A stretch of DNA of 64,000 nt, from assembly GCA_010015805.1 (NCBI GenBank), contig ML978123.1, positions 558,001 through 622,000 on the forward strand. The letters are read 5' to 3'. This stretch comes from Rhizodiscina lignyota. Taxonomy: Eukaryota. Made by a program: the position numbers and the translations under genes. Below, piece by piece: positions 9,301 through 42,954 of this stretch. Each line of letters opens with the position of its first letter. Within the stretch, counting starts at the first letter, position 1. Below the pieces are notes generated by a model. It made no database searches. It was not told the DNA's origin and saw nothing but the letters and a program-made list of their open reading frames with translations.

Positions 9301-12300
9301 TGACAAGAATGAGTAGCCTGGGCCATCCTTCAGATCTTCCAACCTCGCATTTCCGTTGCAAAGTAGTAACGGAGAGATGGGAGAAAGACTTTTCCACAAG
9401 CCGTGTCTGAGGGACGGTCGTCATAACGGGATCAGCTCAAGAGATCCACAGACTACATGTTTCCGTAGAGATGTAGTGAGATCATTGGGTGCTTCCGTTG
9501 ATGAGGGATGCCGGTAGCCAATCCATAGCGAAGATCGATTAAATCGAGATACGACGCTCTGCTATTCGACGCCGGGGTCCATTTGCAACATCGTGCAAAA
9601 TGATGTCGCTCACCACTAAGATTGCAAACCCCTCATTCGTTTCGATATCCTTCAGCGGAGAGCGAGGGTACTGCATTACCACCATTCGAGTGCTGCCGAC
9701 CGCATCTGCTGAATCTATCTGGGCGCACTGTGCCAAAGCTCAGATGACTCCTTCTCGTTATGCTGTGTCCCTGCCATTATGCTGCATATCCTGCGCCGAA
9801 TTGTTGGCTGAACATTGGTTTCGTTCGTATGCATCGTTCGTTCGTATAGATTCGATTGGAATGCTCTTTTCCGCTTAAGCTCTTTCAATTGCTTTCGCAT
9901 ACTGCGTGTTCGTTTCTCAATCGCGTCATACAAGTTGTACAGTTTCGCATGGGCAGACCGAACGCCGCCGCAACGAGGAATGTCTTAACGCGAAAGGCTG
10001 GCCAGCGACGCTCCGAAGGATTTGATCATTCATTAACTGTCCTTCCAATCCTGGTGTCCGAGACTGACGCTGCTTAGGAGTGGCAACATCTGACATGATT
10101 CCTGACAAGCGACAATCGCCAGTTGCAAGCCTCAGCAACTGTAGATCCATACAGGTATGTGCAATTCGAGCTTCTCGAACATCGATATTGACTTGGGTAT
10201 AGACGAGCGAACGTTTTGTTGAACAAGTTTCGAGGTTCTCGAAGCCGAGTACTACGCCAGGTGGCTATGGTACTGCTGGTAACTCCATCGACGGCGAGGG
10301 TCAGGCCTATTGGACTTCTCCGATCTTGGGTCTGTGAGGAGACCTCTAGGCTCATAGGGTCGAATGTCCTCTGTGGTGCCTGACTGTTCATCGTGCTTCT
10401 CAGAGCAGTTTACTGCCGGGAGGTGGGCAGCGGCTGGGGTGTGCGATGTCGGGGTCATTCAAAATCCTGAATTGGGTTTTGAACATCTGAATGCAAGCAA
10501 CTAGATGTATTCACATGAGAAGGTCATCTCCGGGATGCCTTCGCAGCTAGACACTGCTCGAGTTCGTAGGTGTTTTCTGAACGCCCCTGGACTGCCGCGG
10601 CAACCATGATATGCCAATCCAGGACGCGACCGCCAGCATCGTACTCGTCATTCCGGTTCGTGGGGCTCGGAGCCGTATGATGCAAGCTAACAGTAAGATC
10701 TGCCGTCATTCTGCTGATGAATAATTCGAGTATGTGATGGATGGTCGTCAAGGTCGCCAGAAGCTCGGATCAAAATCGAGGACTTGGAAGGACCAAGAAC
10801 GCTTGCGACACCACTGATGATCCAGATCAATGGCGCCACTTTCTTCGATAGTGATTTCTAAAGCTCCAGCGTTTCAAAGCCTTCTGGTGCGACGATCGGG
10901 GATGTTGTTGTGAGGTGGCAGTGTGATGTAGAGAAATGGGTGGTGGTCAGAACTTTGTGCGGGTCTTTCCCCCTTGGCAGTCGCGTTCGGCAACCACCTC
11001 TCCCAATCAGGAATTCACCACCGAGGACAGCGAGAAAGACTTGTTCAAGCTGCTATCGATATGCGGTATACGCATTCGATGCGACTTTCGATGCTTTGGA
11101 ACCCTCCCTTGGGGAGGATCTCTTCAGAATGGCCAACAATTGTCGACAAAGGCTGCGCATGACACTTCTAGTAGGCAGCTCCGGACCTACAATCAAAGGG
11201 ACACTTACTAAGACCATCGTGTTGCAGCTTGGTACTACTCACTCGGAAGTTTTGTTTGAGGATATTCACCTTCGAGGTCAAAGCAATGGAAGACACTCTC
11301 CACTTTCTTCGTTCGAAGCGTCTCCCATTCGGCAGCAGCCTCTCGCGTCTCATTCAGGTTCCAATCTCATCGATTAGCGTGAAACGCAATCGACAGCTCG
11401 TTTACTTTCCGAAATACTACCCTACATTTCTGGCCATTCAAAATTACAGCATGATGCTAAGAATGCCGAGTCTATAGGATCTCAGCTACTGAATCCAAAG
11501 GCACGAGGCTGACAACATTTGTAGGAAAGCGACACTCGAGTTCAATGGCTTATAAGAAACTAATTAACGGACGCAAACAGCACATTATGGCAGATTATTT
11601 AGATACCCAACCAAAGACTCCACCGTCTAGTTCCCATACACTTATCGAGCCCTAGAGATTTGCCTTCTTCTTCAAGTCCGCCGACCTTCAAACCGCTTCG
11701 CACGAGTCTCTCGAAGCATTTCCTGAAACCTCCCCTCCAGCACAAGAATTATACTCGGCCATCTTCGAAAATGGCGCATTCTATCGTGTCCGCTCTCCGG
11801 GCAGCTCCTCAACATAGGTAATCCATTACCCGAGCGTACAAATCACGGCCACCACGAACATTTGCTCCTTGATCCATTTAACAAATCTCTGTTCCCGAGC
11901 TTGGATTTAATAGAGGGCTTTAGAGCGAGTTTCATCTTCGAGTTATCATATCCCAGCCGACGAGGCAATACCTTGAGGCAGGACGGCGACATGCACGATC
12001 TCCTCTCGGGGGAAAGAAGGATATGAATATGGACAACAATACCTTGGCAGCAATTGGATGGACTAGTTTCAAACGATATGAGCTGACCCAGTTACAAAAC
12101 GAGCCAGCGAACTCTTCTTTCCTCAGTGGTTGCTGACAATCCACCGACCGATACAACTCGTCACGAAGATGCTCTCAAAGGGCGAAGGACAAGGTACTTC
12201 TTCGACAGCCCTGATGGAGTCGGCATTGATATATTCTATTCATCAATGTACAATGTATAGATGTCTACAACAACAAACAAATTGTCTTGTCTCGATATAC

Positions 12301-32409: not shown

Positions 32410-34605
32410 ATGTCGGCCTTCATCGACTTTCGATCCCGCCGCCAGCGGCGCTTCAGCAACGATTCAGCCTCCTCCACCTCCACCTCCCCCGAAAGACCTC
32501 TGCTAGACGATGACAATGAGTCTTTCATGCTCAACGACAATGAGTCGGTGTCCTCAGTCGCGCCTTCGGTCGTCGACGAGGACATCAGCGACTCCCGGGC
32601 CCGCGACATCGAGGAGCAGAACCGCGTGTCGCCCATCAGTAGACTGCCCGCCGAGATTATGATCGCAGTGTTTTCGCGCCTAGCATCAACCGCAGACCTG
32701 AGGTCGTGCATGCTGGTATCCAGAGAATGGGCCAAGAACAGCGTGCAGCTGCTGTGGCATCGCCCCCAGACCGGGAGATGGGATGCCCTCCACAATGTCG
32801 TGTTGTCCATCCGCAACGCAAACACCTACTTTGACTACTACAACTTGGTGAAACGACTGAACCTCTCGTCTCTGGGCAATCAAGTGAGCGATGGGACGCT
32901 TATGCCCTTCGCCGCGTGCAAGCGCATCGAGCGCTTGACGCTGACAAACTGCCCCAAGCTCACGGACTTGAGTGTCTCGAGAATGATACAAGGCAACCGA
33001 AGCCTTTTGGCGTTGGATGTCACTGGACTTGAGAATATCACCGACGTTACGATGCATGCGGTTGCCGACAACTGCCTCCGGCTACAGGGACTGAATATCA
33101 CAAACTGCCGGAAGGTATCTGATGAATCTCTGGAGCATGTGGCGCGCAGCTGCAGATATGTAAAGAGGGTAAGCCTAGCAGACCGAGTCCGTTTTTGACG
33201 AAATGCTGACATCTACGTGCCACAGCTCAAATTCAATGGCTGTCATCAGTTGACAGACAAGTCCATCGTAGCCTTTGCTCAAAACTGCCGCTCTATCCTC
33301 GAGATTGACCTTGCAGACTGCAGGAACCTCGAGGATGATGCCGTCACAGCGCTCATCAACGAAGGCCACCAGCTCCGCGAGCTCCGCCTGGCGCATTGCA
33401 CGCGTATCACCGACAACGCGTTCCTCAACCTCCCCCAAGATATCACATTCGAGAGCCTCCGCATCCTTGACCTCACGGATTGCGGGGAACTCCAAGACGC
33501 TGGCGTCCAGAAGATTGTCCAGGCCGCCCCCCGTCTGCGCAACCTGGTGTTGGCGAAATGCAGGCAAATTACAGACAGGGCAGTCATGGCAATCACGAAG
33601 CTGGGCAAGAACCTGCATTATGTTCACCTTGGCCATTGCCAGCGCATCACTGATGTTGGCGTGCAGCAGCTAGTCAAGCTTTGCAACCGCATCCGCTATA
33701 TCGATTTGGCATGCTGCTCGAATTTGACGGATGCGTCTGTGCAACAGCTTGCATCCCTGCCAAAGTTGAAGCGTATCGGTCTCGTCAAGTGCGGCAATAT
33801 CACCGACCGCAGCATCTACGCTCTGGCGAAGCCAAAATATCCTTACCAGGGCAGCTCGGCCACGCCGAGTTCTTTGGAGCGAGTGCATCTCAGCTATTGC
33901 ACCCTTCTCAGTTTGAACGGCATTCATGCACTGCTGAATAACTGCCCCAAGCTCACTCACTTGAGTCTTACTGGTGTTCAAGCTTTCCTCCGAGACGATC
34001 TGCTTGTGCACTGCCGCGAGGCGCCTCCGGAATTCAACGACCACCAGCGCGATGTGTTCTGCGTCTTCTCTGGAGACGGCGTCAAGAAGCTCAGGAAACA
34101 GCTCAACGACGATGCCGCGTATCAGCAGTACGACGGTGAGACTGGAATGTACGACGACAGTCTGGATGACTCTGGCGACATGACCATGACCATCGGAAAC
34201 GCGAGCTCGAGCCAGCTCGGCGCAACTGCACAATCGTGGCCTGGCGCCACAGTGCAAGTCCCAACACCGCAGCAGAACCACGGTCAGCACGGTCCACCGC
34301 CACCTCCAGTGCTCTTGCAGATAAACACAAATATCCAGCAACACCAACACGCTACGAATAACGAGGATGAGAACCCGCCAAGCCCGTATAGCGGCGAGCC
34401 AGATCAGCCTCTTGCATTCGACACAGCGATGCCAACGCTGCCGATGTTCCCCACGCAGCATGTCAATCCCCTTTCGGGTTTCTTGCAGGCCAATGCCGAG
34501 CAGTTCCAGCAGTTGAATCTGGCTACGACAGATGCTGACATGCCGGACGTCGATGATATGGAGAAGGTGCCCTCTTCCAGCAACCACAACCGTCACAGCA
34601 CATGA
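32410..34605 (+). CDS. GRR1: SCF E3 ubiquitin ligase F-box/LRR protein Grr1 (GrrA)
   Basis: F-box PISRLPAEIMIAVF...CMLVSREWA; VKRLNL; CKRIERLTLTNC; intron 33169-33225; LRRs including APRLRNLVLAKCRQITD, CNRIRYIDLACC, LPKLKRIGLVKC, SLERVHLSYC; FCVFSG. Confidence 0.96.
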
Positions 34606-35925
34606 ATTTTCTTCTAGCACAAAAGTGTTTCCGGCAATGTGTACGGTTTTTCTTAGAATCTGTTGGCTCTTTTGCATCAAGCGCGGCGTATACCCTTCAT
34701 GACAATCGCTCAAGCATGTTCCTTCTTGGCAATGGAAAGTAAGGCTTAGCGGAGGCACGGTGTCGGATGGCGCAAGGCTTCCCTCGGTTGTGGTGTTCTC
34801 TTTTCTCTTCTCTTCTGTGATTTGGCAACGGCATTGATATCCCACTCTACACATTTTCTCCCTCTCGAAGTTCTTTTAACGCTGTACACGTCCTCAGACG
34901 ACCCGAGTAGTTGCCCTGGGGCAGGCCCGAAGGCTGGTTAGAGCTACATACATGAGCATCAGAATAGCTATGAATCGCAGCGATCAATGAAATGAGAAGA
35001 ACTGAATTCAATATGGAGTGCCTTTAAGCTTCCGACAGTGACCTCGGTGACAAGCGAGATGAGAATCTACTGAAGGCGGCTAGCGCCGTGCCAAGGCATC
35101 CATTAGGTACCTAACATTCAGTACCTCGCACTGAACATCTCTTCCACTTCATCACCAAGTTTTTCTCGGATTTGACGTAACGCAACTCAAAGTTATGTGA
35201 TTTTGAGTTACCTTTCGGGATGTATTCCTTAAGAGTTCATTCAAGTCCTGTCCCGTCCAGCTGAGCAGTGAGAGTTGCCCCATGGAAGCCAGCGCATCCC
35301 CCTTTTCCATCTGTTGCCTTCCTGCAAGCCTCAATGCAAACCACACCAATCAGTGCTCAGAATTACCCCAGGTTCACTCGATGGATACTTCCAACCTTTT
35401 GATTTATATGGCGCATCGAGCTACTGGCTGATTCGCTGTACACCGCGTCTGTTGTAGTGTCATGCATTGTGCTCCTTCAGCCTTGTCTGCTCGTTGCAAC
35501 TTCCGCGCATTTATGACATGGAACAAGATCTTTCATATCCAATCTTCAAAGCCTCAGTTTATTCTATTTTCTTGGGGTTGACGATGACAAAGGACGAAGG
35601 CTCTATAAACCTCAGAAATTGACGGTGGAGAACTTATATTGCGACAGACCCAACCGAGAAATATGCTCGCCCATCTGCTTCCTGCAGCTGGGTCTCTCAA
35701 ATCGATGCCTGTAATGCATGGGGTTCAGGCAGCAACATTGCCCCGCGCTTTCCCCTTCTGCACGCAATGCGCAGTTGCGCAAACCGCGAGCGCGAACGCC
35801 AGTGATGACAAAAACTCGATATCGGACTCCCAACGCTACTTGACTTTCACTTGAGCATCTGGTCTTGACTATCACTTCTACAGATAGTTAATTTATGATA
35901 GCTATGGAGACAACAAAGCCAATTG

Positions 35926-36977
35926 ATGATTTGGGCATCTCTCACCCAGAAACACAATCTTTGCCCCGCGTCTTTTCCAGTTCCTCGTCACTCACATTCC
36001 ATTTCTACTCATGGACAACCTCAATCGTATCATGCGTATCATCCAGTCACTCCAGCTTTGACTGGAAGTTCAGGCTCGAAACTCTCAGGAGCGCAGCTTC
36101 AGCAACAGGGCACCGTGAACCTGGTAGCGGGAACGGCTATTGAACCCCCAAAATCTGCCATATTTTCTGTCTCTCCCTTATTAGCGCCGAAGGAGGAAGT
36201 TCCGAATCTCTTTCTATCAGTGCCAGACTCTTTGACCGCAGACCTCAGCGATGACGACTTCGAATACTCGGCCTCCGAGAGGCTGGGTCTCTCAATTTCC
36301 AGCTCGAGTCGCTCGACCGTGGACTCTGGTGACTGGTCCTTCCGTGGGTCTCCACCGCCCTCGCTCATTAGCAATGTAGACCTCACTCTCTCCTCCCTTT
36401 CATGCCCAGACTAGTAGAAGGAGGTGCTGACGCTGCCTAGGAGCCGAATTCCAGAGACTACACACTTGAATGCATCCTACCTATACCTCGTCGCATATTC
36501 GATTGTAGTCTTTGTTCCAGGCGATTTGATCGGGAAGACAAACTCCGCAGCCACTTTCGAACCCATACGGAGGAGCGTCCCTTCATCTGTACAGTTTGTG
36601 GAAAAGCGTTTGCTGGAGCTGCTCGTAAGCGACACGAACGTCTACATACCAGCGAGAACATATTTGTTGGCAGCGGACAGCTAAATGACGATTCTACCCG
36701 GGGATATGCAACAGAACCTGCTCGAGCTGGTCCCCTTGAGAGACATTTTAAGAGCGAAACCGCGCGTATAAGCATTGACTCCCTACTGAACGACATTGCG
36801 GATCAGTCAACTAAAGAAGACTGCGAGAGCACCAAGATCAATAATCCGCCACATCAGATCTGTGATAATGGAAATGCAGTCGGTGAACATAGCGATAAAT
36901 CTGCTGCAAGTCATATTGATCATTCTCAGCCATCCTCTGATGTCTGCGATGTCTCGGCAGACGTTGGCGAGACCTAA
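35926..36977 (+). CDS. Upstream part of a C2H2 locus: Ser/Pro-rich exon spliced to a degenerate Crz1/CrzA-like zinc-finger exon ending at TAA (possible pseudogene or N-terminal half of a fusion)
   Basis: Phase-0 intron 36376-36440 (GTAGAC...GCTGAC...TAG). The exon from 36441 reads [53 protein letters not shown]. The 5' end is uncertain. Confidence 0.6.
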
Positions 36978-36986
36978 GATCACCGT

Positions 36987-38633
36987 ATGGGAGATGCGCC
37001 GACCGAAAGTATTGTCGGCGAGGTAGGTGTTACAGCCTATCTCAATATCAACTCCACACCCGAACCACCAATCTCCGAGTTTACCCCTCACGCTTCAACT
37101 CCTCGTGCTGAGGAATGTACAACGCCGTCAACTGTACTAGATGAAGATATGGCTGATACTGAAGAAGAGGTTTCAGAGTCAGAAATATCTTTCTCCTCCA
37201 GCGCTGCCTCAACCTCTTTGTGGCCAGAAAGTCCTAATTCCGCTGAACGAGAAGGCATTGCTGCTCCGATTGTGGACGAATCACGGAGGCAGATTGTGGA
37301 TCGCCTTATGCATGAAGTACGTCTTCTCCTCAGCCGGCAGACTGGTATTAGAAGCAGAGCCAGCAGCAATGAGTCTCCTCGTTCTCCGCCACTTCAACAT
37401 AATCATGCAGACCAACCCGCTGGGACTTCATGTAGTGTCTCTAAACGTTCTCGAGATGATGATTCTGGATCAGAAATGCCCGGGGATGGCTCAGGGGACG
37501 GTGGCCCTGCCAAGCGACAAAGACTCAATGTTCCTGCTATATTGGACGAACCTCGCAAATTTGCTTGCCCTTATTTTAAGCGAAATTCACGCTTGCATCA
37601 GCAATACAGATCGTGCGCTGGGCCAGGTTGGAGCACGTGCCATCGTGTCAAGTATGACTGTCATTCTTTAAACAATGCATTACTAACTGGAAACAGAGAA
37701 CATCTCTATCGTAGACACAAGCTTCCAGTGAGATGTCCAAGGTGTTATACTGCTTTCCTGAACGACAAAGAACTCTCCACTCACTATAGACAGCTGGAGA
37801 GCTGCAAAATACAACAAGAACATCCAGTTGAAGGCCTTGACAAAGCCCAAGAGGCACAGCTAAGAAGTAGGAAAAGATTAATCGGGACCGAGGAGCACAA
37901 GTGGAAGGGAATGTATTCGATCCTGTTTCCGGACGATGACGAGGATAGCATTCCGTCTCCATGTAAGTCAATAAAGGCCAGATCCATCCAGACACTAATC
38001 AGACCTTCTTCAGACTATGGGACGGACGGCGACGTGAACGGACAGTCTGACGCGCTTGCGGAGTATGATCGCTATATGGCTCGTGAGCTTCCCCGTCTGG
38101 TCAGAACACAGCTTGAAGCTACTATCATGGGGTTATCTATGCCGCTGGAGAGCCAAATCCAAAGTCAGCTTGTCGACATAGTGCGGAACTGTCAAAAGGA
38201 AGTCTTCAAAGCTTATGCTGCGAATCGCAAACCACAGGCTTGCACGACGGGCACAACCCCAGGGGCTTCATCGACTGAGCCTCCAACTCTGGACATACCT
38301 CCAACCGATACACTCGCAAGTATCAACGCGTTCTTCGCACCTCCGTTCCTTGCAGACAATCTCCTATTTACATTCGAGAATTTACCTCAGAACTCGACCG
38401 AATTCTGCACTGCTCCGGGACCCGTCTCCCTTTCTGATTCCGCCTATGTTTCGCAGAATCCCAGCTTTTTAAATGATCTCGATGCATTTGGGCAGGGTAG
38501 CAGTAATGGGCTTCCACAAGCTGATCCGGCTGCCGACGTCATGGCCAAGTGCCTAGGCTCTGAAGTCCTTGCAAGCGATACACTGCAAGATGATAGCCTT
38601 TGGCCGAACAGCGTAGAGGCTTGGAGCACTTGA
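36987..38633 (+). CDS. Fungal C2H2-type zinc finger domain protein (FACPYFK...CxGPGW family)
   Basis: RKFACPYFKRN...SCAGPGWSTCHRVK, intron 37652-37696, EHLYRRH..RCPRC...H; KWKGMYSILFP...PSP, intron 37963-38013; RELPRLVR. Confidence 0.8.
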   Translation: MGDAPTESIVGEVGVTAYLNINSTPEPPISEFTPHASTPRAEECTTPSTVLDEDMADTEEEVSESEISFSSSAASTSLWPESPNSAEREGIAAPIVDESRRQIVDRLMHEVRLLLSRQTGIRSRASSNESPRSPPLQHNHADQPAGTSCSVSKRSRDDDSGSEMPGDGSGDGGPAKRQRLNVPAILDEPRKFACPYFKRNSRLHQQYRSCAGPGWSTCHRVKYDCHSLNNALLTGNREHLYRRHKLPVRCPRCYTAFLNDKELSTHYRQLESCKIQQEHPVEGLDKAQEAQLRSRKRLIGTEEHKWKGMYSILFPDDDEDSIPSPCKSIKARSIQTLIRPSSDYGTDGDVNGQSDALAEYDRYMARELPRLVRTQLEATIMGLSMPLESQIQSQLVDIVRNCQKEVFKAYAANRKPQACTTGTTPGASSTEPPTLDIPPTDTLASINAFFAPPFLADNLLFTFENLPQNSTEFCTAPGPVSLSDSAYVSQNPSFLNDLDAFGQGSSNGLPQADPAADVMAKCLGSEVLASDTLQDDSLWPNSVEAWST

Positions 38634-39224
38634 GCACTTATCCTTAGCCTAAAGGGCCGTATTGTTTTGTTCCGTTCCTTGGTCTTAGGGGTATGGTTAA
38701 GCGGGCGGAGAGAGATCAATGACCCATGGCAGTATTCAATGTTGATTGGTTGTGTATATACATTAGTACGATTCTCTGCTTTGTACGAGCGTATGTATCA
38801 GTCTCGTAAGTGGTGAGAACCACACTCTGGTGAGGCTCCTCAAGTGCAGTGAACGACAACTGCTCAAAGGCTCAACTATGCTTCAAGAAGCCAGCGTTCG
38901 TACAGCATCTTGCGGACGATCAAGTGGAATTCGCGGTGAAGAGAGCGGGTATGCGAGGCCGTTGCAGATCATTTCTGCTGGGGCATGACGGCCGCTTCAG
39001 CTTGCGCCAAGCTCGGAGCCTCAACTTCAAAGCCAACCCACGTCCCCGATCCTTCGAGAAACCGTTGCCTGAACGCTCATTACACGTATGCGTACCCACA
39101 ATGAATTGAAATTCGCTCAATACTCCCATCCCCCCGATTTCAATGTCGTACGCTCCCCTCTCTCGAGTCCGGAATCCATAGCAAGCGCGGAGCCAGTCTC
39201 ACCTCCAACCCCACAACTACCGCC

Positions 39225-42200
39225 ATGTCGACATCGCAGTACCGCCCTTCCGCCGTCCCGCCGGCATCGCAGCGTCCACAAGCCTTCAATGCTCCGGTAG
39301 TATCCACTTCCAATGCTCCGGCGGGCACGTTTGCGCCTGGCACGAAAGTGCAAGTGGGCAAGCACCGGGTGGTCATTGAGCGGTACCTGTCCGAGGGCGG
39401 CTTCGCGCACGTCTACTCCGCGCACGTCATTCGCCAGGATGGCACCACTCATCCCAAGGACGTCGCTGTGCTCAAGCGCGTCGCTGTGCCGGATAAGGAT
39501 CAGCTAGCGAACATGAGAACTGAGGTCGAGACGATGAAGAAGTTGAAGGGCCATAAGCATATCGTCATGTATATCGATTCGCATGCGAGCCAGCTGAAAG
39601 GAGGAGGATATGAGGTTTTCTTGCTCATGGAATATTGTCAGGGCGGTGGATTGATTGATTTCATGAATACAAGGCTACAACATCGTCTCACGGAGCCGGA
39701 GATTCTGGGCATCTTTGCGGATGTAGCGGAGGGAGTTGCTGCGATGCACTACCTGGTTCCTCCATTGCTGCATAGGGACTTGAAGGTCGAGAACGTGCTC
39801 ATCTCCACTTCTAACAATACGCGCATCTACAAGCTCTGCGATTTTGGCTCTACCGCCCCCCCTCGCCCAGCCGCATCTACCGCAGCGGAAGGCAGGCTGA
39901 TCGAAGACGACGTGCAGCGGCACACGACGATGCAATATCGCTCGCCAGAGATGATTGACGTGTACAGGAAGCAGCCGATCGATGAGAAGAGCGATATCTG
40001 GGCACTGGGTGTGCTTCTTTACAAGTTGTGTTACTATACTACACCGTTTGAAGAGCAGGGCCAGATGGCGATATTGAACGCCACGTTCAAGTATCCTTCA
40101 TATCCTCAGTTCTCAGATCGATTAAAGAGGCTGATTGGGAGCATGTTGAGGGAGAAACCAAGCTTGAGGCCCAATATTTATCAGCTTGTGAAGGAGGTAG
40201 CAGGAATGAGAGGGACAGAGGTGCCTATTAAAGATGTAGGGATTTGCGCCTTTCATTTGCGCCTTGAACTGGTCGTACTAATATACAGGGCAGATTTACG
40301 CCCATCGAACGCAATCCGAGGCGAGACGGTACCAGGAAATGCCGCCACCATCACCGACAGCGACTTCTCCGCCAGCGATTGGGCTCCAGAAAGCATCGCC
40401 AACGCAGGAATTCGAGCCTCTGCCTGAGATTACGCCAATGAGGAGAGGGCGACCAACTGCTCCAGCGCCACAGTCACAGCGAACTTTGGCAGGTCACACG
40501 CCTTCTCCAATGCGCGGTACTTCTTCAGATCCATTTGCTGCACTGGACTCGACGAACCCCGAAGTCCGTGCAGCAGCTGCAGATGAACTTGCCGCAAAAT
40601 TCCCATCGTTAGATGAATTCTCATTACTTCATGATAAGGGCACGAAATTCCAGTTTGGGCAGTCTGCAGCCTCTGCGCCTGCATCTGCATCTGCACCCGT
40701 TGCGGATCCAAAGCACGAATTACTGCAAAAGCGCGTCACGCAAGCATTAGCTGACGATGCATTTGCACAGCCGGCTAAGAAGGCTGACACGGCGCCAGCG
40801 TCCAAAGTACCCTCTGCAGCAGCCACGGGCTCGGCCAAAATTGCGAGCACGTCCAGATTGCAGAACTTGCAGCACGACGAGCGTTCGTCTTCTCTGCCCC
40901 TTCGGCAACAGGCGTCTCAAGAGCCAAAGATTCCAGTCACGAAAATTACCATGGTCTCTACTGGCGTTGGCTCGTCGCCTCCGCCATCACCACCGCCCGC
41001 TGCCACCAAAGTGCCAGAATTCAAAAACAGACCACTCTATCGCTTCCCGTCTGCCTCGGCTTCTTCGCCAGGCACGCGTGAGTCTAGTGCCTCCCGGCCT
41101 GCAGACTTCAAACGCCCTGCTTTGCCTGATCTCCATCGTTCAAAGTCGTCTACAACGACGCTTACTGCGGCAGCACCTCTAGCAATGTCAAAGTCGCCTG
41201 CATCTTCGCGACCCAGTCTTGAGGGCCAGCGGCCGGCCGTAGCTGACCTAACCGGCAGTGAGGCACTCGCTCGCTCTCGATCTGCAAATGCACGATCTGG
41301 TCCACGGCCAGCGAGTGTCTACGTCGAGAGGAACATCGACTTCTTGCGCGATCGCGAGAGTGGACGGCTGTCGGCAGGCATGAAGTCTTCGCCTATCGGA
41401 CAGCGTGTTCGTGACCGTGAAATCAAGGGGTATGACGACTTCAAATCCGCTGCTGTGGCAGTCGACTCGTCGGACGACGAGGGGCCTGAGGATCTGGAGA
41501 GGAAGGACTCGAACATTCATGACAATGTAGAATATTTGCGGCAGATGGAGGACGAAGCAGGCACTGGGCACCACCACCATCCTCTTCACGGTGCTGGCGG
41601 CGCAATGAAGATGTTTGCGAAGAAAGATAGGAGGAGCAGTAGCGGTGGCAGTAAGCATGGTCATGGACACGCAAAGAGGTCGAGCCTGGGCGCCATGGCT
41701 GGAGGTCTGAGCAAGACGAACGAGATCATTAAAGGCAAATTTGGAGATGCCTTTAGGAAGTTCGAGAGTAATAAAGGCAGCGAGCGCGACGATGGATTGC
41801 TTGATAGTCCGCCTGCAAGTCCCAACCCAGATGTGGATGTAGGGAATAGCCGCAGAGGAATTTTCAGCCATGATCGCTCGAGTTCGAGAGACAAGCGCAA
41901 ATCGCTGGATCTGCAGAGGAGAAGTATGGAGAGGAGTCGTGGGAGGAACAGTGGAGAACAGGATCGTTTGGACAGTGCGAAGGAGAGAGAACGCTATGTT
42001 TTGACGCCGATTGCGGGATCGGATGCGCCGAGCTCGGGACCCCGATCAGACATCAACGATGACTTCCTGGAACGTGAGAGGGACACCACATTCGATCGTC
42101 AGTTTGTTGAGGAGCAAGACCTTTCGCCTGAAGTGCGCCGCGAGCTCGAACGGCAGAGACTGGCGCAGGAGGAGAAACGAGTGGAAGCTGCCCGCGAGGA

Positions 42201-42954
42201 GCACAGGCGTAGAGTTGCTGCGGGTGGTGCTGAGGCCGGTGAGAGTAAAGCAAGTACGATCCAGAAGCGTGTGCTGAGCCTCCTGGACGAAGCGGACAGC
42301 AAGGGGAGGGAACCGCCGAGACGAACTGCCGAGGGATATGGAAGGTTCAATGAGGAGGCCAGACAAGTGCTGGAGAAGCCACTCCCAGTCCCGCCAAAAC
42401 CAGCACCGCTTCCTGCTAGGAAGCCAATCAATGCTAGTATAGCAGGGCAGCTGGCTTCTTCTAACCCGGCAACACCGCCAGTGCCCCCATCCGCACCTCC
42501 GCCAGTTGCGAGTACACTTCCACAGCGCGCGGCGACCGTCGCAAATCCACCGCAGCAGCCCTCACTGCCGTCACAGCGTATAATGACTGGAGCTGCCGTG
42601 CCCGCAAGCGCTACACCACGTCCTTCTGCGCCTCCCAAACCCCAGACCCTCCGCACAGGAGGTGGAGCCCCCCGAGCAACAGGTCCGAGTCTCGAGGCGC
42701 TGCTGCAGAAAGACATGGAAGGTGTTGCTGAGCCACCGCTTCAGGAGAAGTCGCAGCAGAGACTGGATCTCGAGGCGCACCAGCGCTGGGTTGGGGGACG
42801 GCCGAATGTGGGGAGGGATGATGGGCAGGAACCTGAGCTGGTCGAGAGGGATCCGGAGTGGGAGGCCAATTTCGCGAGGAAGTATCCCAAGCTGGAGGGC
42901 ATTGAGATGGTGGAGACAGAGGTGCTGCCCGTGGGCAAGGTGAGAGATGTTTGA
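39225..42954 (+). CDS. NAK-family Ser/Thr kinase (Ark1/Prk1/Akl1-like) with long Pro-rich C-terminal region
   Basis: YLSEGGFAHVY, AVLKRV, LLHRDLKVENVL, KLCDFGS, TTMQYRSPEM, DEKSDIWALG. Intron 40236-40293 joins the kinase exon in frame to the C-terminal ORF; DPF motif. Confidence 0.94.

What the first reader, a model, noticed from the sequence alone, without database searches (positions are those of the whole stretch)
36441..36989. Mutated Crz1/CrzA zinc-finger exon in frame with a downstream C2H2 gene, separated by one TAA
Seen: an ATG-less exon, absent from the ORF track, encodes [99 protein letters not shown]. Known: the calcineurin target Crz1/CrzA reads approximately [60 protein letters not shown].L....[32 protein letters not shown]. 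Fingers 1-2 keep their ligands but have altered recognition helices (RAYN to REDK; RQHD to GAA with a 1-aa deletion). Finger 3 has lost both Cys. The frame runs 178 codons, hits a single TAA (36975-36977) and continues in the same frame into the 548-codon C2H2 ORF at 36987. Inference: a Crz1 DNA-binding domain was duplicated and shuffled onto an unrelated C2H2 protein. The chimera is now split, pseudogenised or read through.
Basis: partly seen in the sequence, partly recalled or inferred. Interest (0 to 1): 0.8.

Follow-up and report, generated by a model that had tools for sequence, protein, structure and literature searches.

The report
Decayed Crz1-type fingers, gene split by stop
This is the worn-down DNA-binding part of a spare copy of the fungal calcium-response regulator Crz1, once joined to a second zinc-binding protein part and now cut off from it by a stop codon, so it looks like ordinary gene decay caught midway.

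Summary
Window 36441-36974 is a 178-codon, Met-less open frame ending at TAA 36975-36977, in the same frame as the ORF starting at ATG 36987. That ORF is NCBI NA57DRAFT_53346 of Rhizodiscina lignyota.

The peptide is a Crz1-type three-finger domain. It is 55/100 identical to a protein named Crz1 and 55/117 to this species' own Crz1 ortholog, NA57DRAFT_74547, which lies on another contig. Finger 1 keeps its ligands. Finger 2 has C-X11-H spacing. Finger 3 has lost all three Cys.

The fusion is not private to this genome. Eight other predicted proteins carry a Crz1-like finger region, whole or reduced, upstream of the same unnamed, widespread C-terminal module. They include Seiridium and Fusarium proteins, and some have intact fingers. 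In one relative I checked the DNA: a single uninterrupted ORF spans both parts. Homology of two relatives runs across the TAA in single alignments. Three relatives have G, K or E at that codon and an internal Met or Ile where the annotated gene starts.

Best reading: a nonsense mutation specific to this lineage is removing an already decayed finger domain from an old fusion gene. Read-through, a hidden intron or an assembly error are unlikely. No RNA data were available. Interest is modest.

The parts
35926..36375 (+). Putative N-terminal coding exon. It is the 170-codon open frame 35902-36414, with its first in-frame ATG at 35926. Both the start and the 3' end are uncertain.
   Evidence: ORF listed and ATG read. 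No Pfam family. No significant similarity to the N-termini of L001 or L002 or to Crz1 P0074.
36376..36440 (+). Candidate 65-nt intron, with donor GTAGAC and a CTGAC branch 13 nt before the AG. The alternative is 36344-36456, with donor GTGGGT.
   Evidence: enumeration. No RNA evidence. L001 and L002 have no interruption at the corresponding place.
36441..36974 (+). Met-less exon encoding the decayed Crz1-type three-finger domain plus the first part of the linker.
36498..36566 (+). Finger 1 (ORF residues 20-42). The C-X2-C-X12-H-X3-H ligands are kept. The recognition helix is changed from RAYNLRSH in Crz1 to REDKLRSH.
   Evidence: Alignment and BLASTP.
36582..36647 (+). Finger 2 (residues 48-69). 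The ligands are kept, but a 1-residue deletion in the helix gives C-X11-H spacing (ARQHDRKR in Crz1, AGAARKR here).
36663..36773 (+). Relic of finger 3 (residues 75-111). The three Cys ligands are replaced by G77, Y89 and S111. His102 and the flanking RHFKSE motif are kept.
36975..36977 (+). TAA stop that interrupts the ancestral reading frame. The aligned residue is G, K or E in three relatives.
   Evidence: Run-assembled contigs at k-mer depth about 149 agree with the window.
36987..38633 (+). Annotated gene NA57DRAFT_53346 (P0017, 531 aa). Its start codon aligns with an internal Met of the relatives L001/P0019 and P0020 and an Ile of P0018.
37652..37696 (+). 45-nt in-frame intron (GTATGA...CTAAC...CAG) between HRVK and EHLYRRH. 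The NCBI model leaves it unspliced.
   Evidence: In one search, 100 relatives have these two motifs contiguous or nearly so (the pattern allowed 0-2 residues between).
37963..38013 (+). 51-nt in-frame intron (GTAAGT...CTAAT...CAG), spliced in the NCBI model.
37542..38246 (+). Conserved C-terminal module (FACPYFKRN...C.GPGW...HRVK-EHLYRRH...C.RC...H...C...EG..QE..LRSRKK...KW..Y.ILFPDD..PSPYY, then a long helix). It matches no Pfam family.

Best explanation
The window holds one member of an unnamed Pezizomycotina gene family. In this family a Crz1-type three-finger DNA-binding domain sits after a short N-terminus. A long acidic, Ser-rich linker follows, and then a strongly conserved zinc-binding module that most family members carry without any Crz1 fingers.

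Shown:
- The finger exon is Crz1-derived.
- The species has a separate canonical Crz1.
- Relatives encode fingers, linker and module in one frame.
- Homology runs across the TAA.
- Relatives have sense codons where the window has TAA.
- The annotated start at 36987 aligns with an internal Met in two relatives and an Ile in a third.
- The finger domain here has lost the zinc ligands of finger 3 and the spacing of finger 2, and it sits on a very long branch.

Inferred:
- The finger domain had already lost its function as a Crz1-like DNA binder while still being translated as the N-terminal part of a long protein.
- A single-base nonsense change (TAA; the relatives' residues K and E have codons one base away from it) then cut it off.
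- What remains useful, if anything, is the downstream module protein. It would be made from the conserved internal Met on a shorter transcript, which would turn this copy into the finger-less form that is the commonest form of the family.
- An mRNA still starting upstream would give a protein of roughly 330 aa with a single intact finger, and would probably be a target of nonsense-mediated decay.

This is domain loss in progress, not a working chimera.
For: 1. Crz1 origin. BLASTP gives 105 bits, E 4e-31, 55/100 identical to P0155, named Crz1. It gives 106 bits, 55/117, to the species' own ortholog P0074. The alignment with four named Crz1/CrzA proteins covers all three fingers and the following RHF.SE..R.CI.PL motif. 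Single fingers of animal multi-finger proteins reach only about 60 bits over 59 aa.

2. A genuine Crz1 lies elsewhere. P0074 (NA57DRAFT_74547, Rhizodiscina lignyota, 749 aa, fingers near the C-terminus at 477-702) is on a 2.59-Mb contig. The window's gene is on a 3.24-Mb contig.

3. Fused relatives.
- In one search, 166 proteins were scanned. 143 carry the module, 31 a Crz1-like finger region, and 8 carry both. One of those 8, P0209, has fingers of another type.
- hmmsearch adds P0302 and P0215 (2 of 27 scanned).
- P0302 (944 aa) has three intact Crz1-like fingers and the full module in one predicted protein.
- L001 shows at DNA level one uninterrupted 746-codon frame covering the N-terminus, the fingers, the linker and the first module exon.

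4. Homology across the stop. P0019 residues 238-669 match window 36513-37673 in one HSP (45% over 438 aa). P0020 residues 37-332 match window 36795-37670 in one HSP (56% over 298 aa). In alignment A1 the TAA column holds G, K and E, and the Met of 36987 aligns to M, M and I.

5. Decay. The terminal branch of the window's fingers is 1.64 changes per column against a median of 0.052. dN is 0.37 to L002, against 0.013 between two canonical Crz1 exons.

6. The stop is real in the reads. Independently built contigs of run X1, at k-mer depth about 149, match 35800-38700 with no differing letter.

7. No rescue by splicing. Of 111 frame-keeping GT-AG pairs spanning the TAA, the 10 distinct donor hexamers include none of GTRNGT type.
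Against: - No RNA evidence of any kind. The only run found is DNA-like. The exon joins upstream, the transcript start of the downstream gene and the expression of either part are therefore all inferred.
- Run X1 may be the very sample the assembly came from, so it does not exclude a mutation peculiar to the sequenced culture.
- The relatives used to infer the ancestral state are only about 45-64% identical. Apart from L001, they are predicted proteins whose DNA I did not see.
- L001 is not syntenic with the window within 10 kb, so it may be a paralog and not the ortholog.
- The finger tree is unresolved: 0 of 43 inner branches are starred, and the 6 fused rows need 6 changes. One origin of the fusion is therefore not shown.
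- dS is saturated in the comparisons with the window, so neutrality of the finger exon cannot be demonstrated.
- The downstream frame is intact over 548 codons. That fits either a very recent stop or continued selection, and the two cannot be told apart here.
Confidence: 0.72

Rival explanations
1. Private, recent chimera. This genome duplicated the DNA-binding domain of its own Crz1 and shuffled it onto an unrelated gene.
For: The domain is Crz1-derived. In the unresolved finger tree, the related fused pair L002/P0019 sits among Dothideomycete Crz1 rows. That allows lineage-specific origins (support 86-90, not starred).
Against: - The same architecture occurs in proteins under 50% identical to each other, from Seiridium, two Fusarium species and several unnamed contigs.
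- The window's fingers are no closer to its own Crz1 (47% over 117 aa) than to an Aspergillus Crz1 (55% over 100 aa).
- The linker and module are homologous to those of the fused relative P0019 over 438 aa.
- 4 of 5 fused rows fall in one 27-row part of the module tree (support 84).
Confidence: 0.07
2. Working read-through or reinitiation gene. The TAA is bypassed, or ribosomes restart at ATG 36987, so that a long chimera or two products are made from one mRNA.
For: The stop and the next ATG are 9 nt apart and in the same frame. The downstream frame is intact for 548 codons.
Against: - Three of three aligned relatives have a sense codon there, so the stop is not a conserved feature.
- TAA followed by G is, as far as I recall, among the efficient terminators. 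The fungal read-through cases I recall use TGA in a special context. Both points are recalled and were not tested.
- Reinitiation after an ORF of roughly 330 codons is not expected in eukaryotes (recalled).
- The finger domain that read-through would preserve is itself decayed.
Confidence: 0.05
3. Artefact. The TAA is an assembly or sequencing error, or an unseen intron removes it, and the gene is an intact fusion.
For: A single base separates TAA from codons of the K and E seen in relatives. The NCBI model of the downstream gene already mishandles one intron.
Against: - Contigs built independently from run X1 at k-mer depth about 149 show no difference over 35800-38700.
- None of the 111 frame-keeping GT-AG pairs has a consensus donor.
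- Any such intron would delete residues that align with coding residues of relatives.
Confidence: 0.05
4. Two long-standing separate genes: a small one-finger protein gene and the module gene, adjacent and in the same frame by chance.
For: NCBI annotates only the downstream part as a gene, starting at 36987. Most module proteins lack Crz1 fingers: 135 of 143. The nearest named relative, P0170 of Talaromyces proteolyticus, has none.
Against: - Only 9 nt lie between the stop and the start.
- About 60 residues upstream of the TAA align with coding sequence of three relatives.
- HSPs cross the stop.
- The fingers lack the ligands a functional small finger protein would need.
Confidence: 0.06

Closest known systems
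Crz1 / CrzA / Prz1-type calcineurin-responsive C2H2 transcription factors
   Same: The three-finger domain has the same order, the same inter-finger linkers and the same unusual long third finger. The residues after it (RHF.SE..R.CI.PL) also correspond. Identity to named Crz1 proteins is 47-55%.
   Different: - Crz1 proteins here are about 700-780 aa with the fingers near the C-terminus. This gene has them after roughly 170 residues.
- The upstream exon shows no similarity to the N-terminal regulatory part of the species' own Crz1. In Crz1 that part holds the calcineurin docking site and the serine-rich region (PMC9604740, passages read).
- Finger 3 ligands are lost, finger 2 spacing is broken and the finger 1 helix is changed.
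- The true ortholog is another gene.
Crz2 of Candida (structural paralog of Crz1)
   Same: It is a second gene with a Crz1-like C2H2 domain beside the true Crz1. In C. auris its deletion did not affect calcineurin-dependent phenotypes (PMC12324677, passages read). That is a precedent for Crz1-domain paralogs uncoupled from calcineurin.
   Different: I did not compare Crz2 sequences. Nothing in the passages I read mentions a C-terminal module of the kind found here, nor decay of the fingers. The family here was seen only in Pezizomycotina proteins.
Unnamed Pezizomycotina 'C2H2-type domain-containing' module family (FACPYFKRN...HRVK-EHLYRRH...C.RC)
   Same: The window's downstream ORF is a clear member. 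P0017 scores 171 bits in the phmmer search with P0029, which found 2277 proteins at E<=0.001.
   Different: Most members have no Crz1 fingers (135 of 143). The window belongs to the minority subgroup that has or had them. The family has no Pfam model. In my four literature searches I found no paper on it, but none of the four searched for the module or the fusion by name or motif.
Duplicated transcription-factor genes turning into pseudogenes in filamentous fungi
   Same: The pattern matches: a premature stop, loss of conserved ligand residues and accelerated change. A review of Aspergillus nidulans transcription factors describes pseudogenisation as a probable outcome after duplication and gives examples (PMC8396895, passages read).
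   Different: Here only the N-terminal domain is cut off. The remaining 548-codon frame is intact and begins at a conserved internal Met, so the result may be a shortened gene and not a dead one.

Membership tests
Crz1/CrzA orthologs | DNA-binding domain of Crz1 sequence type, as opposed to generic C2H2 fingers | tested here: met
   55/100 identical to the named Crz1 P0155, E 4e-31. 55/117 identical to the species' own ortholog P0074. The alignment spans all three fingers.
Crz1/CrzA orthologs | Three zinc fingers with complete ligand sets and normal spacing | tested here: not met
   Finger 3 ligands are C->G, C->Y and C->S. Finger 2 has C-X11-H spacing. Only finger 1 is complete.
Crz1/CrzA orthologs | Being the single ortholog of the genome, with fingers near the C-terminus of a protein of about 700-780 aa | tested here: not met
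   That description fits P0074 (NA57DRAFT_74547, 749 aa, fingers 477-702), which is on another contig. Here the fingers follow an upstream frame of about 150-170 codons.
Crz1/CrzA orthologs | Calcineurin docking motif and serine-rich regulatory region N-terminal of the fingers (features listed in PMC9604740) | tested here: inconclusive
   There is no similarity between window 35000-36440 and residues 1-517 of P0074 at E<1. Short motifs were not searched with a model. By eye, only one loose P-x-L-x-L-S string occurs in the upstream frame.
Crz1/CrzA orthologs | Binding to the calcineurin-dependent response element 5'-GNGGCKCA-3' (PMC9604740) | not testable with these tools
   This needs a binding assay. 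The changed helix of finger 1, the deletion in finger 2 and the loss of finger 3 argue against it.
Fusion family: Crz1-like fingers + linker + FACPYFKRN module (unnamed) | Crz1-like fingers upstream of the module, on the same strand and in the same frame, with a homologous linker | tested here: met
   Same frame. Single HSPs of P0019 and P0020 run from the finger or linker region into the module region.
Fusion family: Crz1-like fingers + linker + FACPYFKRN module (unnamed) | One uninterrupted coding frame from the fingers to the module | tested here: not met
   TAA lies at 36975-36977. L001 is uninterrupted.
Fusion family: Crz1-like fingers + linker + FACPYFKRN module (unnamed) | Module with the invariant Cys, His, Pro and Gly columns | tested here: met
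   The window reads FACPYFKRN...SCAGPGW...HRVK | EHLYRRH...CPRC...H...C across intron 37652-37696.
Programmed stop-codon read-through genes | The stop is conserved in relatives, with conserved coding sequence after it | tested here: not met
   Three of three aligned relatives have a sense residue (G, K, E) at the stop column.
Pseudogene or decaying gene part | Premature stop relative to homologs, loss of residues essential to the fold, and accelerated change | tested here: met
   Stop. Ligand loss. Branch length 1.64 against a median of 0.052. dN 0.37 against 0.013.
Pseudogene or decaying gene part | Lack of expression or of a functional product | not testable with these tools
   No RNA holder was listed.

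The most novel reading that the evidence does not exclude
Pezizomycotina carry an undescribed regulator family in which a Crz1-type DNA-binding domain has been joined to a second, fungus-specific tandem zinc module. The family lacks Crz1's calcineurin-regulated N-terminus. Intact members (P0302, P0175, and L002 for its finger domain) would compete for or share Crz1 target sites without calcium control.

The Crz1 fingers are dispensable and are being lost again and again, each time by a different route. Ligand loss affects fingers 1 and 2 in L001. Finger 2 is lost in Seiridium. Only finger 3 is left in Fusarium. In R. lignyota there is loss of finger 3 plus a nonsense codon just before a conserved internal Met. 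The R. lignyota locus would then be a caught-in-the-act example of how a multidomain regulator sheds a domain and becomes the short form.
Probability: 0.3. Interest if true: 0.5.

Novelty: new variant of a known kind. Interest (0 to 1): 0.35.

Why it matters
Crz1 is the main output of calcineurin signalling in fungi, so extra genes with its DNA-binding domain bear on how its target set can be shared or rewired. This locus shows three things:
- Such a paralog family exists in filamentous ascomycetes, in an architecture not covered by Pfam.
- Its Crz1 fingers are under weak constraint and decay independently in several lineages.
- In R. lignyota the annotated gene NA57DRAFT_53346 is the 3' remainder of a longer ancestral gene.

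Practically, it flags two annotation problems: a start at an internal Met just after a premature stop, and an unspliced 45-nt intron. Biologically it is an ordinary process (paralog decay and domain loss), so the interest is moderate.

Tried and rejected
- **Whole-genome search.** Not possible, because no genome is held for this window. The species' own Crz1 was found through the protein collection instead.
- **First protein search with the finger ORF, longer proteins only.** 15 of the 16 hits were multi-finger proteins (most named ones from animals, two unnamed, plus WT1) matched over part of the query. Only P0015 was informative.
- **ESM Atlas look-up.** Only generic C2H2 clusters came back, and the recognition value of 1873 is below the 2300 mark, so it was no help.
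- **RNA evidence.** No RNA holder was listed. The one run laid (X1, contigs) is DNA-like and shows no joints.
- **N-terminal exon.** Smith-Waterman of the N-termini of P0019 and L002 against all three frames of 35890-36440 was not better than shuffles. The best case was 4 of 200 shuffles reaching the score; the others were 44-193 of 200. I therefore make no claim of a frameshift or of homology there.
- **Tree of the finger domain (49 rows, 103 columns).** Unresolved, with 0 starred branches. It cannot say whether the fusion arose once.
- **P0015-type proteins.** These have N-terminal Crz1-like fingers and long tails. They have no detectable module (25 of 27 proteins without a hit), so I did not count them as fused.
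- **Fold of the module.** The model is confident (pLDDT 85.9). Foldseek against PDB gave no match at E<=0.001; the top weak rows (best E 0.39) are nearly all tandem C2H2 fingers on DNA. The wide VIA search matched only the long C-terminal helix 157-216 at Z<=6.2, which is uninformative. 'Tandem C2H2-like' therefore rests mainly on the sequence pattern.
- **Synteny of L001 with the window.** None within the 10-kb flanks.
- **dN/dS.** dS is saturated in all comparisons with the window, so only dN values are used.
- **Earlier notes of this scan.** None exist for this genome.
- **Literature.** Four searches and passages from four papers turned up no description of a Crz1-finger fusion with this module. 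None of the four searched for the module or the fusion by name or motif, and subscription-only papers and supplements were not searched.
Full report
**What is in the sequence.**
It gives 36978..38633 (+) as the next 551 codons of the same frame.
- The only interruption is TAA at 36975-36977. The first ATG after it is at 36987.
- The 178-codon frame has no Met.
- A 170-codon frame, 35902..36414, lies upstream in another phase, with its first ATG at 35926.
- Two GT-AG pairs join that frame in phase to the finger frame. One is 36376-36440, with a weak donor GTAGAC and a CTGAC 13 nt before the AG. The other is 36344-36456, with donor GTGGGT. Which one is used, if either, cannot be said without RNA.

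**Identity of the locus.**
- The downstream ORF is 97% identical over its whole length to NCBI protein NA57DRAFT_53346 of Rhizodiscina lignyota (P0017, 531 aa). The difference is one spliced 51-nt intron (37963-38013).
- A second in-frame intron of 45 nt (37652-37696, GTATGA...CTAAC...CAG) is left unspliced in that model. It splits the motifs HRVK and EHLYRRH, which are contiguous or nearly so (0-2 residues between) in 100 relatives.

**The finger exon is Crz1-derived.**
- Pfam sees only generic C2H2 models (zf-H2C2_2, E 3e-10).
- A length-restricted protein search was crowded by multi-finger proteins. 15 of 16 hits were of that kind, each matched over about a third to a half of the query.
- The exception, P0015, aligned over 102 residues, including the region after finger 2 (52% identity).
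- A search seeded with one of them returned 970 proteins at E<=1e-10. Among the 120 listed are proteins named CRZ1, crzA, Crz1 and BcCRZ1 (P0094, P0101, P0106, P0145, P0146, P0155). The list also holds P0074, NA57DRAFT_74547 of Rhizodiscina lignyota: 749 aa, with the domain at 477-702, on a different contig from the window's gene.
- The window's exon is 55/100 identical to P0155 and 55/117 to P0074, both at E 4e-31.
That is about 105 bits over 100-117 aa, against about 60 bits over 59 aa for animal fingers.

**State of the three fingers (numbering of the 178-aa ORF).**
- Finger 1 (20-42) keeps C-X2-C-X12-H-X3-H, but its helix reads REDKLRSH where Crz1 has RAYNLRSH.
- Finger 2 (48-69) keeps its four ligands but has lost one residue of the helix, so the spacing is C-X11-H.
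- Finger 3 (75-111) has G, Y and S in place of its three Cys and keeps only the His.
- In a tree of 49 finger domains the window's terminal branch is 1.64 changes per column, against a median of 0.052.
- dN between the window and the intact relative L002 is 0.37. Between two canonical Crz1 exons it is 0.013. dS is saturated, so no ratio is claimed.

**The two parts were one gene.**
- P0019 (721 aa) carries a Crz1-like region at 160-267 and the homolog of the downstream ORF at 441-669.
- Its DNA, L001, shows one uninterrupted 746-codon frame (9926-12166). The frame runs from before the start codon, through the fingers and linker, to the intron after HRVK. The later module exons follow.
- With a sensitive tblastn, P0019 residues 238-669 align to window 36513-37673 in a single HSP. 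P0020 residues 37-332 align to window 36795-37670 in a single HSP. Both cross the TAA.
- In a four-way alignment, about 60 residues upstream of the stop align with coding sequence of L001, P0020 and P0018. The stop column holds G, K and E. The Met encoded at 36987 aligns with Met, Met and Ile inside those proteins.
- The annotated start of NA57DRAFT_53346 therefore corresponds to an internal position of the ancestral protein.

**The fusion is a family trait, not a private event.**
- A full HMMER search with the Seiridium cupressi protein P0029 found 2277 proteins at E<=0.001. P0029 is 813 aa, with a degenerate Crz1-like region at 47-188 and the module at about 520-720.
- Of 166 proteins scanned locally, 143 carry the module, 31 a Crz1-like finger region and 8 both. 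The 166 were the 150 listed hits plus earlier ones.
- The eight are P0019, P0029, P0159, P0175, P0188, P0177 (Fusarium lateritium), P0179 (F. austroafricanum) and P0209 (Thozetella). The fingers of P0209 are of another type.
- A profile search added P0302 and P0215 (2 of 27 scanned).
- P0302 (944 aa) has three intact Crz1-like fingers, the Crz1-like motif after them, and the complete module.
- The fingers are intact in P0175, P0159, P0188/P0302 and L002.
- They are damaged in different ways elsewhere. Fingers 1 and 2 lack Cys in P0019. The last His of finger 1 is gone and finger 2 is absent in P0029. Only finger 3 is left in the two Fusarium proteins.
- L001 and L002 differ by dS 0.07 but dN 0.15 in this region, so the damage in L001 is recent.
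- In a tree of the module (69 rows), the window's protein is sister to P0170 of Talaromyces proteolyticus (support 99). P0170 has no Crz1 fingers. Four of five fused rows lie in one 27-row part of the tree, at support 84.
- Whether the fusion arose once is not settled. The finger tree has no well-supported branch.

**The stop itself.**
- Contigs built independently from the only public run that holds the stretch (X1, k-mer depth about 149) agree with 35800-38700 without a single differing letter. The run may be the assembly's own sample.
- No intron can plausibly remove the stop. Among 111 frame-keeping GT-AG pairs that span it, the ten distinct donors (GTCCCC, GTATAA, GTCAAC, GTGATA, GTCGGT, GTGAAC, GTCATA, GTCTGC, GTCTCG, GTTGGC) include none of the usual GTRNGT type. 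Any such intron would also delete residues aligned with coding residues in relatives.
- The stop is not conserved. Its type and context (TAA, then G) are not what I recall of leaky stops (recalled, not tested).

**The partner module.**
- It has no Pfam family.
- An alignment of 61 members shows invariant C, P, C, P, G, R, K, C, H, C and other columns.
- An AlphaFold2 model of a short member is confident (pLDDT 85.9).
- Foldseek gives nothing at E<=0.001. Its weak top rows (best E 0.39) are nearly all tandem C2H2 fingers on DNA. The wide structural search matched only the terminal long helix.
- I read it as two atypical C2H2/C2HC-like zinc knuckles, followed by a helical region and a long helix. 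That is compatible with nucleic-acid binding and self-association, but this is inference.

**How it most likely works.**
- Intact family members would be transcription-factor-like proteins that combine Crz1's DNA-recognition helices with the second zinc module. Those helices are unchanged in P0175 and nearly so in L002.
- They would lack Crz1's long N-terminal regulatory part. The window's upstream region shows no similarity to that part of P0074. The Crz1 features are from PMC9604740 (passages).
- Candida Crz2 is a precedent for a Crz1-domain paralog outside calcineurin control (PMC12324677, passages).
- In R. lignyota the finger domain can hardly bind a Crz1 site, and the stop severs it from the module. 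The likely present state is one of two. Either it is a shortened gene expressed from the internal Met, which is the commonest form of the family. Or it is a gene on its way to being a pseudogene.

**Verdict.** The phenomenon is paralog decay and domain loss in an uncharacterised but widespread family. It is a useful correction to the annotation and a tidy evolutionary snapshot, but not a surprising mechanism.

Noticed in passing
window 37652-37696: The NCBI model NA57DRAFT_53346 (P0017) keeps a 45-nt in-frame intron (GTATGA...CTAAC...CAG) as 15 extra residues between HRVK and EHLYRRH. In 100 relatives the two motifs are contiguous or nearly so (0-2 residues between). This is probably a mis-annotated intron.
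   Followed up: partly
window 36039-36069: In the contigs of run X1, the stretch is broken at a 31-mer with about twice the depth of its flanks (290 against about 150). That suggests the 31-mer occurs a second time in the genome. It is unique within the window, even allowing up to 3 mismatches.
   Followed up: partly
L001 16210-16639 (minus strand): The metagenome contig that carries the fused relative has a second, diverged copy of the C-terminal module gene about 4 kb downstream on the opposite strand (40-48% identity to the window's module). This points to local duplication of the family.
   Followed up: no
L001 10487-10804 versus L002 950-1264: These two closely related finger regions differ by dN 0.154 but dS 0.073 (ratio about 2). 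L001 has lost Cys ligands of fingers 1 and 2 while L002 is intact. This may be very recent relaxed or diversifying change, or a mutation bias.
   Followed up: partly
proteins P0015, P0211 (Xylariales sp.), P0273, P0295, P0268, P0217: This is a further class of predicted proteins of 880-1390 aa. Five of the six have an intact Crz1-like finger domain near the N-terminus; in P0217 it starts near residue 280. All have long tails without the module found here. They may be other Crz1-domain paralogs or fusions in ascomycetes.
   Followed up: partly
window 33199-34605 and 39105-42954: The flanking genes are a leucine-rich-repeat protein and a Ser/Thr protein kinase followed by a long Pro/Ser-rich region. 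This is read from the ORF translations only. Neither is present near the relative L001, so the family member is not in conserved synteny.
   Followed up: partly
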